Assembly: GCF_003334405.1 (NCBI RefSeq) | Contig: NZ_QOWM01000032.1 | Source: Escherichia coli | GTDB taxonomy: Bacteria > Pseudomonadota > Gammaproteobacteria > Enterobacterales > Enterobacteriaceae | Length of the DNA: 5,842 nucleotides | Strand: one strand, 5' to 3' | Shown: in pieces, positions 4,256-4,528 of the stretch | Layout of the letters: each line of letters starts with the position of its first letter | Numbering within the stretch: position 1 is the first letter of the stretch | Position numbers and translations under genes: made by a program | The notes under the pieces: model-generated | Database searches by the model: none | What the model saw: the letters and a program-made list of their open reading frames with translations, nothing else | What the model was told of the DNA's origin: nothing

Positions 4256-4315
4256 TGCTGAATACTTCACAGTCATAATGGATGAAATGGCGACATAAGC
4301 ATTAAGGAGGCAAAA

Positions 4316-4528
4316 ATGAATGATTGGCTCTGTTCTTTACATGATTTAATCACAAATCCTGTATTTATGCTGTCTTTTTCAGTTTTTTGGGTGTCTACGG
4401 GAACACTTTTAATCAGAACTGTATTCAGAAAAATTAACATATCTGAAATTTGCATACTTTTTTTATTATTGACACTAATAATTCTGTCTTTATGTATTTT
4501 TGTAACATTAAAAGCTTCTTTTAACTAA
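4316..4528 (+). CDS. Small hydrophobic double-TM membrane protein (70 aa), function unknown
   Basis: Strongest RBS in the window, AAGGAGG at 4304-4310, 5 nt before ATG 4316. Two hydrophobic helices (VFMLSFSVFWVSTGTLLI; ICILFLLLTLIILSLCIFV). Same strand and spacing as neighbours. TAA stop at 4526-4528. Confidence 0.5.
   Translation: MNDWLCSLHDLITNPVFMLSFSVFWVSTGTLLIRTVFRKINISEICILFLLLTLIILSLCIFVTLKASFN

What the first reader, a model, noticed from the sequence alone, without database searches (positions are those of the whole stretch)
4304..4528. Tiny double-TM protein behind the strongest Shine-Dalgarno in the window
A near-consensus AAGGAGG with ideal 5-nt spacing precedes a 70-aa, extremely hydrophobic two-helix protein in AT-rich DNA. 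Small highly expressed membrane peptides on plasmids can be membrane-active toxins (addiction or abortive functions) or exclusion factors. It is also preceded by a 60-nt gap that could hold its own promoter.
Basis: partly seen in the sequence, partly recalled or inferred. Interest (0 to 1): 0.4.

Follow-up and report, generated by a model that had tools for sequence, protein, structure and literature searches.

The report
Truncated nuclease-linked small membrane protein gene
The tiny hydrophobic ORF is a real but unstudied small inner-membrane protein gene of IncX/IncI2 resistance plasmids, a shortened copy of a gene that normally sits directly behind the plasmid's periplasmic nuclease gene, and nothing supports it being a toxin.

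Summary
TAAGGAGG (4303-4310) lies 5 nt before ATG 4316, which opens a 70-aa, two-helix, very hydrophobic ORF (4316-4528) at 27% GC.

The window is IncX4 plasmid backbone, and RefSeq leaves this ORF unannotated. It is a real gene:
- Only 0.6% of shuffles stay open.
- Homologues in about 180 plasmids keep the frame, and all indels are in-frame.
- dN/dS is 0.3-0.6, with a pooled synonymous excess of p=3e-4.

It belongs to an uncharacterised family with no match in Pfam, NCBIfam, PHROGs, PADLOC, PDB sequences or Foldseek. Full-length members lie immediately after the SNase-type nuc gene, with nuc's stop codon inside their SD. They carry a conserved N-terminal motif (C.GC.HPYPAGHW.YS). The window copy lost that motif through a clean 36-nt in-frame deletion.

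The "60-nt gap" is not a promoter. It is the flank of an inserted 134-aa gene plus a fossil nuc 3' end, which supplies the SD.

The toxin, addiction and exclusion readings lack support. There is no antisense RNA or promoter signal, the leader is unstructured, and the ORF sits inside an operon. The gene is also deleted or frameshifted in the most successful IncX4 and IncI2 lineages.

Best guess, at low confidence: an accessory inner-membrane partner of the periplasmic nuclease, here in a decoupled and truncated form. Interest is modest.

The parts
2889..3323 (+). 144-aa two-TM ORF whose stop overlaps the nuc start (ATGA). It forms the upstream membrane-protein flank of nuc.
   Evidence: Genes upstream of nuc in other plasmids are mostly 2-3 TM proteins too, though not homologous, and they often overlap the nuc start.
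3320..3835 (+). nuc: SNase/thermonuclease-family nuclease with a Sec signal peptide (MRIFLSVILFLFTAFQSANA|GG), so exported to the periplasm.
   Evidence: NCBIfam thermonuclease hits and the RefSeq annotation. dN/dS is 0.1-0.4.
3851..4255 (+). 134-aa Cys-rich (zinc-ribbon-like) gene inserted between nuc and the small ORF.
   Evidence: It is present in some relatives and absent in others, where the small ORF directly follows nuc.
4256..4285 (+). 3' flank that travels with the 134-aa gene module.
   Evidence: The same sequence (tgctgaatacttca.a.tcataat) follows the 134-aa gene in L003, L006, L017 and L033.
4286..4305 (+). Fossil 3' end of a nuc gene (reads ...KWRHKH then TAA at 4303-4305). Weaker similarity extends back to 4279.
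   Evidence: It is identical to the segment that precedes the 70/71-aa copies in L010 and L022. It is homologous to real nuc-to-partner junctions in L018, L013, L019 and L012.
4303..4315 (+). Ribosome-binding site TAAGGAGG plus the 5-nt spacer CAAAA. The ancestral nuc stop codon is embedded in the SD.
   Evidence: TAAGGAGG occurs once per locus, and only before N-truncated, nuc-detached copies. The region is unstructured, z=+1.6.
4316..4528 (+). 70-aa small membrane protein gene. N-tail is aa 1-14, TM1 aa 15-37, basic loop R34/R38/K39-INISE aa 38-44, TM2 aa 45-65, tail KASFN.
4325..4327 (+). Scar of a 36-nt in-frame deletion (ATGAATGATTG^G). It removed codons for CFGCMHPYPAGH, the family's conserved N-terminal motif.
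   Evidence: Comparison with ATGAATGATTGTTTCGGTTGTATGCATCCATATCCGGCTGGTCACTGG in L018 and L013, and with the P0059/P0062 proteins.
4572..5147 (+). 191-aa hypothetical gene, mislabelled 'DNA topoisomerase III' in some records. It is the next gene in the same-strand array before topB (5152 onward).

Best explanation
SHOWN. The ORF is a genuine protein-coding gene for a 70-residue helical-hairpin membrane protein. It is a truncated member of an uncharacterised family confined to enterobacterial IncX, IncI2 and related conjugative plasmids. In the founding arrangement the gene lies about 10 nt after, or 4 nt overlapping, the SNase-type periplasmic nuclease gene nuc, with nuc's stop codon inside the partner's Shine-Dalgarno. 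Full-length members start with a conserved, acidic, roughly 25-residue peptide (C.GC.HPYPAGHW.YS..D) followed by TM1. After TM1 comes either a basic loop plus TM2 (this 82-aa type) or one of two unrelated soluble domains.

The window copy has been separated from nuc by an inserted 134-aa gene. It still carries a fossil of a nuc 3' end that supplies its TAAGGAGG. It has lost the N-terminal motif through a 36-nt in-frame deletion.

INFERRED. It is read from a long same-strand transcript, since no promoter or terminator signal lies nearby. Translation initiates efficiently at an open, consensus RBS. The protein inserts N-out/C-out, with the R34/R38/K39 loop in the cytoplasm. This topology was inferred by hand from charge counts, not by a topology predictor.

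The family most likely acts as an accessory inner-membrane partner (tether or modulator) of the exported nuclease, or of an envelope step at the end of the transfer operon. The window version keeps only the hairpin and loop, so it is a decoupled and possibly attenuated variant. It is dispensable and is not a toxin-antitoxin component.
For: Coding:
- The open frame is unlikely by chance, 0.6% of shuffles.
- The frame is intact in 10 of the 11 distinct full-length homologous copies checked, and all indels are multiples of 3.
- dN/dS is 0.3-0.6. Pooled synonymous excess is p=2.7e-4 over five pairs, four non-overlapping plus a second pair that reuses the window copy.
- The exact protein occurs on 420 public contigs, and its 90% cluster has 29 members; 12 of the 15 listed are exactly 70 aa.

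Family and context:
- tblastn and HMM homologues occur in about 180 plasmids.
- nuc-to-partner adjacency holds in IncX1, X3, X4 and X5, in IncI2, in an MPF-I plasmid and in an IncFII-rep MPF-T plasmid.
- The N-terminal 20 codons show pS 0.2-0.8 against pN 0.02-0.24.
- The junction alignment shows the nuc fossil and the stop-within-SD arrangement.

Topology: the N-tail has 0 K/R and 2 D, while the loop has 3 K/R (sequence). AF2 predicts a hairpin.

Not a toxin cassette.

Dispensable: the gene is frameshifted in about 500 IncI2 records and deleted in typical IncX4 plasmids. Transposon studies found the nuc-topB interval non-essential for maintenance and transfer in IncX4 pHNSHP23 and IncI2 TP114 (PMC8725589; PMC7508951).
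Against: No function has been demonstrated for any family member, and nothing here shows a physical or functional link to Nuc beyond gene order and coupling.

Nuc homologues at 53-68% identity on IncF and IncK plasmids have no such partner, so Nuc does not need one.

The window copy lacks the family's best-conserved motif. Constraint on the ORF is weaker than on nuc. One homologue has an internal stop (L008).

PGAP does not call the gene in the identical RefSeq record. There is no direct evidence of transcription or translation for this copy. It is not established that the plasmids used in the transposon studies carry an intact copy.
Confidence: 0.5

Rival explanations
1. Decaying remnant. The ORF may still be translated but has no selected function. 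It would be a partner gene stranded away from its cognate nuc, stripped of its functional N-terminal motif, and on its way to loss.
For: The 36-nt deletion removes the near-invariant PYPAGH motif. The family is repeatedly lost: frameshifted in IncI2, deleted in IncX4, and carrying an internal stop in L008. The window and L010 alleles differ by 5 non-synonymous and 0 synonymous changes. PGAP does not call the gene.
Against: All nine sampled DNA copies of the 70-aa lineage keep the frame. Twelve of the 15 listed protein alleles are exactly 70 aa; the other three are 71 or 89 aa through a C-terminal or an upstream in-frame extension. The N-tail and loop are invariant among the alleles.

Against L022 there are 4 synonymous and 6 non-synonymous changes, giving omega of about 0.4. 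The SD is perfect rather than decayed. Against the distant L021 homologue there is still a synonymous excess, p=0.018. In two-copy plasmids both copies stay intact.
Confidence: 0.2
2. Transfer-related envelope factor. The hairpin would act at the T4SS or in the recipient envelope, for example as an exclusion, immunity or mating-pair modulator, independently of Nuc.
For: It lies at the distal end of the same-strand T4SS-taxB-eex-like-kikA-nuc array. The family is found only on conjugative or mobilisable MPF-T and MPF-I plasmids. Allelic and mosaic diversity is concentrated in the TM segments. Small two-TM exclusion and immunity proteins exist, for example phage T4 Imm; this is from my own knowledge and was not tested.
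Against: A putative IncX eex gene is assigned elsewhere: upstream of pilX1 in IncX4, and between pilX5 and pilX6 in other IncX plasmids (PMC8725589). The ORF is absent or broken in most IncX4 and IncI2 plasmids, which still transfer well. Transposon mutagenesis flagged nothing in the nuc-topB interval as needed for transfer. It has no lipobox or signal peptide.
Confidence: 0.1
3. Membrane-active toxin, either a type I toxin-antitoxin or abortive-type peptide, or a holin-like pore.
For: It is small and extremely hydrophobic, sits in AT-rich DNA, has a very strong RBS, and is plasmid-borne. Toxicity on overexpression cannot be excluded computationally.
Against: - No hit to the Hok, Ldr, Ibs, TisB, DinQ or other toxin models that NCBIfam and Pfam contain, nor to PADLOC or PHROGs holins.
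- It has two TM helices and 70 aa, rather than one TM and under 60 aa.
- No promoter-like site on either strand, no antisense RNA family, and no terminator.
- The leader is unstructured, whereas type I toxin mRNAs sequester their SD (the latter point is established knowledge).
- There is no charged C-terminal tail and no endolysin neighbour, as a holin would have.
- The predicted topology is N-out/C-out.
- The gene is freely lost.
- Insertion libraries of IncX4 found only tsxB to be antitoxin-like essential.
Confidence: 0.07
4. Chance ORF in AT-rich intergenic DNA that happens to follow an SD-like sequence.
For: The SD-ATG motif alone is not rare enough to be decisive, with 17 of 200 shuffles matching. 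RefSeq does not annotate the ORF.
Against: Only 0.6% of shuffles keep the frame open. Protein-level homologues exist with synonymous excess and in-frame indels. T makes up 52% of codon position 2, which is typical of TM proteins.
Confidence: 0.02

Closest known systems
82-aa 'hypothetical protein' family of IncX/IncI2 plasmids (e.g. WP_021580496.1, WP_071827940.1; UniRef label 'Inner membrane protein' for the exact 70-aa sequence)
   Same: Direct homologues at 45-59% identity to typical 82-aa members, and higher in chimeric members. They share TM1, the K.NISE loop, TM2 and the LKAS tail, and they occupy the same operon position after nuc or after the 134-aa gene.
   Different: The window protein lacks 12 N-terminal residues, including the near-invariant PYPAGH, and 3 loop residues. 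Its TM2 is divergent. It is preceded by a nuc fossil rather than by nuc itself.
Single-TM nuc-downstream proteins of IncX1, X3 and X5 plasmids ('Type B' P0095 and 'Type C' P0096 in this report)
   Same: They have the same conserved N-terminal motif plus first TM, and the same position directly after nuc with a coupled RBS.
   Different: They have unrelated soluble C-terminal domains instead of TM2. The window protein has lost the only segment it would share with them apart from TM1.
Type I toxin peptides (Hok/Gef, Ldr, TisB, and DinQ-like DqlB, which is annotated elsewhere on this same plasmid)
   Same: Small, hydrophobic, plasmid-encoded inner-membrane peptides.
   Different: There is no sequence match. 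The ORF has two TMs and 70 aa, with no antisense RNA or promoter signals. Its RBS is open rather than sequestered, it is embedded in an operon, and it is freely lost.
Entry-exclusion proteins of MPF-T plasmids (pKM101/IncX Eex lipoproteins, IncP TrbK)
   Same: Small envelope proteins encoded near the distal end of T4SS operons, next to traG/taxB and nuc. The gene order in pKM101 is recalled from my own knowledge.
   Different: Those are lipoproteins with a signal peptide and lipobox, which this ORF lacks. The putative IncX4 eex is placed upstream of pilX1 (PMC8725589). The ORF is not universal in the group.
Small two-TM immunity or exclusion proteins (phage T4 Imm, class IIa microcin immunity proteins), recalled from my own knowledge
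   Same: About 70-85 aa with two TM helices, encoded on mobile elements.
   Different: No sequence or profile similarity was detected. No cognate bacteriocin or phage context is present. No test of function was possible.

Membership tests
nuc-coupled small membrane protein family (provisional, defined here; two-TM 'Type A') | Sequence homology across TM1, the basic loop (K.NISE), TM2 and the LKAS tail | tested here: met
   tblastn, phmmer and alignment give 45-59% identity to typical 82-aa members. W4, S7, L8, L11, N14, F24, L57, S58, L65 and K66 are invariant.
nuc-coupled small membrane protein family (provisional, defined here; two-TM 'Type A') | Gene starts about 10 nt after the nuc stop codon, with the stop inside its SD | tested here: inconclusive
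   In the window an intact nuc lies 480 nt upstream and a 134-aa gene intervenes. However, a 20-nt fossil of a nuc 3' end, with TAA inside TAAGGAGG, directly precedes the ORF.
nuc-coupled small membrane protein family (provisional, defined here; two-TM 'Type A') | Conserved N-terminal peptide ...PYPAGHW.YSL.DL | tested here: not met
   A 36-nt in-frame deletion leaves MND|WLCSLHDL. Only the W.(C/Y)SL.DL part remains.
Type I toxin-antitoxin membrane toxins | Match to a known toxin family model | tested here: not met
   There were 0 Pfam hits even at E<=10, 0 NCBIfam hits and 0 PADLOC hits.
Type I toxin-antitoxin membrane toxins | Cis or adjacent antisense RNA antitoxin with its own promoter | tested here: not met
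   No promoter-like site on either strand near 4256-4600 and no Rfam match. Consensus scans are weak evidence.
Type I toxin-antitoxin membrane toxins | Structured leader that sequesters the SD, in a stand-alone transcription unit | tested here: not met
   The region 4256-4360 folds at -12.1 kcal/mol against a shuffle mean of -16.9 (z=+1.6), and 191 of 200 shuffles fold at least as well. The ORF lies within a same-strand array.
Type I toxin-antitoxin membrane toxins | Toxicity or membrane depolarisation on expression | not testable with these tools
   This needs an induction experiment.
Entry-exclusion proteins (Eex/TrbK type) | Signal peptide with lipobox, or a conserved presence across the plasmid group | tested here: not met
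   The sequence has no signal peptide or lipobox. The gene is absent from typical IncX4 plasmids and frameshifted in about 500 IncI2 records. The putative eex is assigned elsewhere (PMC8725589).
Entry-exclusion proteins (Eex/TrbK type) | Reduces plasmid entry when expressed in recipients | not testable with these tools
   This needs mating assays.
Class II holins / pinholins | Two TMs with N-in/C-in topology, a charged C-terminal tail, a neighbouring endolysin, and a PHROG or Pfam holin match | tested here: not met
   The C-tail is only KASFN. The positive-inside rule predicts N-out/C-out. There is no PHROG hit for the 70-aa protein, no Pfam hit and no lysin gene nearby.
VirB2/TrbC-type T4SS pilins | Pfam TrbC/VirB2 match, a long signal peptide, and structural similarity to pilin hairpins | tested here: not met
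   No Pfam hit. Foldseek against PDB returned one non-significant hit, E=7 to YscE. No signal peptide is present.

The most novel reading that the evidence does not exclude
The genes flanking nuc on IncX, IncI2 and related plasmids would form a previously unrecognised membrane-anchored nuclease module. It would consist of an exported SNase-type nuclease, translationally coupled to an N-out membrane partner whose conserved periplasmic peptide (C.GC.HPYPAGHW.YS) docks or regulates the nuclease at the inner membrane or T4SS. Interchangeable cytoplasmic or TM output domains would complete the partner. Motif-less copies behind a nuc fossil, such as the window ORF, would be decoupled variants with a separate membrane role.
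Probability: 0.15. Interest if true: 0.6.

Novelty: new variant of a known kind. Interest (0 to 1): 0.33.

Why it matters
IncX4, IncX3 and IncI2 plasmids are the main vehicles of mcr-1 and blaNDM-5. Their backbones still contain genes that annotation pipelines miss or mislabel, and this ORF is unannotated in the identical RefSeq record.

Recognising a nuc-coupled membrane-protein family gives a testable handle on the function of plasmid periplasmic nucleases, which remain unexplained and are dispensable for transfer in the cited screens. The family has a conserved periplasmic motif, swappable C-terminal modules and a stop-in-SD coupling site.

The work also shows how a consensus Shine-Dalgarno can be a relic of translational coupling to a gene that is no longer there. 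For the toxin hypothesis the result is mainly negative. Practical importance is modest because the gene is frequently lost.

Tried and rejected
- Pfam, NCBIfam, PHROGs and PADLOC scans of the 70-aa and 82-aa proteins and their neighbours gave nothing informative. The only hit was a weak unknown-function PHROG for the 82-aa form.
- A profile search of 1.84 billion representatives returned only 20 hits, all the same plasmid family or fragments, plus one spurious repetitive protein, P0097.
- PDB sequence searches found nothing for A1 and nothing significant for A2.
- The AF2 model of the ORF is a generic hairpin, and Foldseek against PDB gave no hit.
- The AF2 model of the sister Type B protein is all-helical with pLDDT 83, but Foldseek gave no hit below E=3.
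- An Rfam scan found no RNA family near the ORF.
- I tried to tie the ORF to 'cds4', a gene flagged by transposon mutagenesis in IncX4 pHNSHP23. The primer arms map to a different gene near the partition locus, L001 16181-16450.
- The TP114 accession is not in the collections, so I could not check whether it carries an intact copy.
- I considered a pilin-like hairpin, a holin and a microcin-immunity protein. All were rejected or left untestable, as set out in the membership table.
- The antisense 60-aa ORF (4273-4455, minus strand) is best explained as a by-product of a T-rich sense strand. Its conservation was not examined.

Full report
**Observation.** The window reads ...cattaaggaggcaaaaATGAATGAT... 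AAGGAGG lies at 4304-4310, extended to TAAGGAGG from 4303. A 5-nt spacer follows, then ATG at 4316 and a stop at 4526-4528. It is the only AAGGAGG on either strand. AAGGAGG-N4-9-ATG is expected 0.09 times per window, and 17 of 200 shuffles contain one. The product has 70 residues and GRAVY 1.28, with hydrophobic stretches at about 15-37 and 45-65. AF2, run with a 30-sequence alignment, predicts helices 15-37 and 42-69 joined at RKIN, with pLDDT 74. The ORF is 26.8% GC against 40.5% for the window. Only 0.6% of shuffles of its own bases keep the frame open, and T occupies 52% of second codon positions. The description is therefore accurate.

**Where it is.** The window is 100% identical to E. 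coli plasmid NZ_CP070012.1, typed IncX4, MOBP, MPF-T. The gene order, all on one strand, is:
- taxB (the VirD4-type coupling protein)
- a Cag12-family lipoprotein
- a TrbM/KikA-family gene
- an 85-aa ORF
- a 144-aa two-TM ORF
- nuc, an SNase-family nuclease with a signal peptide
- a 134-aa Cys-rich gene
- the 70-aa ORF
- a 191-aa gene
- topB, followed by hha and hns

The 70-aa ORF has no feature in the full RefSeq annotation. GenBank submitters do call the identical protein 'hypothetical protein', and UniRef calls it 'Inner membrane protein'. It occurs on 420 public contigs.

**It is a real gene.** tblastn and phmmer find homologues in about 180 plasmids of E. coli, Salmonella, Klebsiella, Shigella, Citrobacter and Serratia. 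Most are 82 aa long and have no Pfam domain or name. In the 11 distinct full-length homologous copies checked the frame is intact in all but one (L008 has an internal stop). Every indel (36, 9 and 6 nt) is a multiple of three. Pairwise dN/dS is 0.3-0.6. Over five pairs (four non-overlapping, plus a second pair that reuses the window copy), synonymous changes are in excess, 62 against 128 where 21.7% would be expected (p=2.7e-4). This includes the 41%-identical homologue on an MPF-I plasmid, p=0.018. The constraint is weaker than on nuc, whose omega is 0.1-0.4.

Within the 70-aa lineage, nine DNA copies were sampled, representing four alleles plus two chimeras. All keep the frame. The 15 listed protein alleles have an invariant N-tail and loop, and 12 of them are exactly 70 aa.

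**What family.** The alignment shows an N-terminal peptide (MHSSFGLPYPAGHW.YSL.DLLDN or MNDCFGCMHPYPAGHW...), then TM1, a basic loop (YRKFNISE), TM2, and LKAS(F/L). A profile search of 1.84 billion representative proteins found no distant relatives. It did recover two proteins (P0095 and P0096) that share only the N-terminal motif and first TM, followed by unrelated soluble domains.

Their genes, like the 82-aa genes, lie immediately downstream of nuc. This holds in IncX1, IncX3, IncX5, IncI2, an MPF-I plasmid and an IncFII-rep MPF-T plasmid. In each case the gap is about 10 nt or there is a 4-nt overlap. The first 20 codons show pS 0.2-0.8 against pN 0.02-0.24, so the motif is conserved as protein rather than as DNA. 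The positive-inside rule places this acidic peptide in the periplasm, where the signal-peptide-bearing Nuc goes. It places the basic loop, or the soluble domains, in the cytoplasm. This topology is an inference.

**Anatomy of the 'gap' and the strong SD.** I aligned the real nuc-to-partner junctions against the window.
- Positions 4256-4285 are the 3' flank that travels with the 134-aa gene. The same sequence appears in L003, L006, L017 and L033.
- Positions 4286-4305 are a fossil nuc 3' end (...KWRHKH, then TAA at 4303-4305).
- In authentic junctions the nuc stop codon sits inside the partner's SD. Examples are atTAAggagacaaaaATG in L018, TAAggggg in L002 and TAAggtgg in L005.

The consensus SD is therefore an inherited translational-coupling site, one A-to-G change away from the IncX1 version. 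It is not the mark of an autonomous cassette. TAAGGAGG occurs once per fetched locus. It occurs only in front of N-truncated copies that are detached from nuc: the window, L010, L022-25, and a truncated Type B gene in L017.

The start ATGAATGATTG^G equals ATGAATGATTGT...CACTGG with 36 nt removed. The window protein is MNDCFGCMHPYPAGHW... minus CFGCMHPYPAGH.

No sigma-70-like promoter or intrinsic terminator is predicted in or around the gap on either strand. No Rfam family matches. The initiation region is less structured than 191 of 200 shuffles.

**Dynamics.** The interval between nuc and topB is a mosaic of accessory genes: the 134-aa, 250-aa and 109-aa genes, DUF6012, an AAA ATPase and PcfJ. 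Some plasmids carry both an 82-aa copy after nuc and a 70/71-aa copy after the 250-aa gene. Chimeric alleles show crossovers inside the ORF (P0002/P0003/L028 and P0004/L026).

The family is often lost. About 500 IncI2 records, the epidemic mcr-1 lineage, retain only a frameshifted stub, MHSSFGLP*. Typical IncX4 plasmids have deleted it together with DUF6012. Nuc homologues on IncF and IncK plasmids have no such partner.

**Published functional data.**
- In IncX4 pHNSHP23, Tn5 insertions were tolerated everywhere except pir, the antitoxin tsxB and mcr-1.
- In the same plasmid the pilX operon has a single mapped TSS, and RT-PCR confirmed that it runs through taxB and trbM.
- Its putative eex lies upstream of pilX1.
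- No gene in the nuc-topB interval was required for transfer (PMC8725589).
- The flagged 'cds4' maps elsewhere.
- In IncI2 TP114, yeaA (nuc), ydjA, ydiA and ydgA (topB) were non-essential for maintenance and for transfer in vitro and in the gut (PMC7508951).
- In IncX3, deleting conserved hypothetical genes changed transfer by less than 12-fold (PMC11880322).

Whether those plasmids carry an intact copy of this gene is not established, so this evidence is only indirect.

**Interpretation.** Three things are shown. The ORF is a genuine small membrane-protein gene. It is homologous to a family that is positionally and translationally coupled to nuc. It is truncated and displaced in this plasmid.

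The rest is inferred. The gene is probably co-transcribed with its neighbours, efficiently translated, and inserted N-out/C-out. The family most plausibly acts as an accessory membrane partner of the periplasmic nuclease, or at the envelope end of the transfer apparatus. I give this reading about 0.5 overall. The Nuc-partner step on its own is weaker, about 0.3.

The main rival is a functionless remnant (0.2). A Nuc-independent transfer or exclusion role (0.1) and a toxin (0.07) are less likely. A chance ORF is essentially excluded.

**Novelty and score.** The protein sequence is already in public databases as 'hypothetical'. The following appear to be undescribed; literature searches found nothing:
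- the family-level picture of nuc coupling with the stop codon inside the SD
- the conserved periplasmic motif
- the modular C-termini
- the fossil-derived consensus SD

The gene is a dispensable accessory, and the window holds a truncated copy, so interest is modest (0.33).

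Noticed in passing
window 2889-3323 (and L010 1077-1394, L018 1688-2005, L012 5107-5523, L022 1054-1362): nuc is flanked on its upstream side too by a small 2-3 TM protein gene, which usually overlaps the nuc start codon (ATGA). At least three unrelated sequence types occupy this slot in different plasmids.
   Followed up: partly
L028 1211-1864 (IncI2 yebA) versus L018 2501-2842 and L013 6001-6372: The soluble domain ...GRLV..FMKRTNG.PLLIVFPEYD.GD... appears in the TM-anchored YebA upstream of nuc in IncI2, and in the 'Type C' protein downstream of nuc in IncX1-like plasmids. The same module sits on either side of nuc.
   Followed up: partly
window 3851-5147; L006, L017, L002: Propagated mis-annotations. 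The 134-aa Cys-rich gene is labelled 'exodeoxyribonuclease V subunit beta' in some GenBank records, and the 191-aa gene is labelled 'DNA topoisomerase III'. Neither hit a supporting NCBIfam model here.
   Followed up: partly
window 2550-2807: The first 28 residues of this 85-aa ORF match positions 227-252 of the VirB11 model (E=5.6e-5). It may be a VirB11-derived fragment fused to unrelated sequence.
   Followed up: no
L032 1265-1340 (NZ_CP021176.1) and about 500 similar IncI2 records; L033 1976-2080: The epidemic mcr-1 IncI2 lineage keeps only a frameshifted stub of the small ORF (MHSSFGLP*). Typical IncX4 plasmids have a deletion running from the 134-aa gene flank to the last 57 nt of DUF6012.
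   Followed up: yes
L010 1892-2140 and 3030-3242; L022 1863-2111 and 3001-3216: Some plasmids carry two paralogous copies (82 aa and 70/71 aa) that bracket a 250-aa gene. The second copy is preceded by a fossil nuc 3' end, which suggests module insertion by recombination between nuc-partner junctions.
   Followed up: partly
L017 2560-2880 (CP082524.1, IncX1/X3-type): A 106-aa N-truncated 'Type B' protein sits behind the same 134-aa-gene flank, nuc fossil and TAAGGAGG as the window ORF. Homology to the window ends just after ATGAAT. This is a parallel loss of the N-terminal motif in a different family member.
   Followed up: partly
L001 14699-14794 (same plasmid, outside the window): A DinQ-like type I toxin gene (dqlB) is annotated elsewhere on this plasmid, so bona fide small toxins are recognised by the annotation pipeline while this ORF is not.
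   Followed up: no
window 4273-4455, minus strand: A 60-aa antisense ORF overlaps the SD and the first two thirds of the gene. Similar antisense ORFs exist in L002 and L006. They are probably a by-product of the T-rich sense strand.
   Followed up: no
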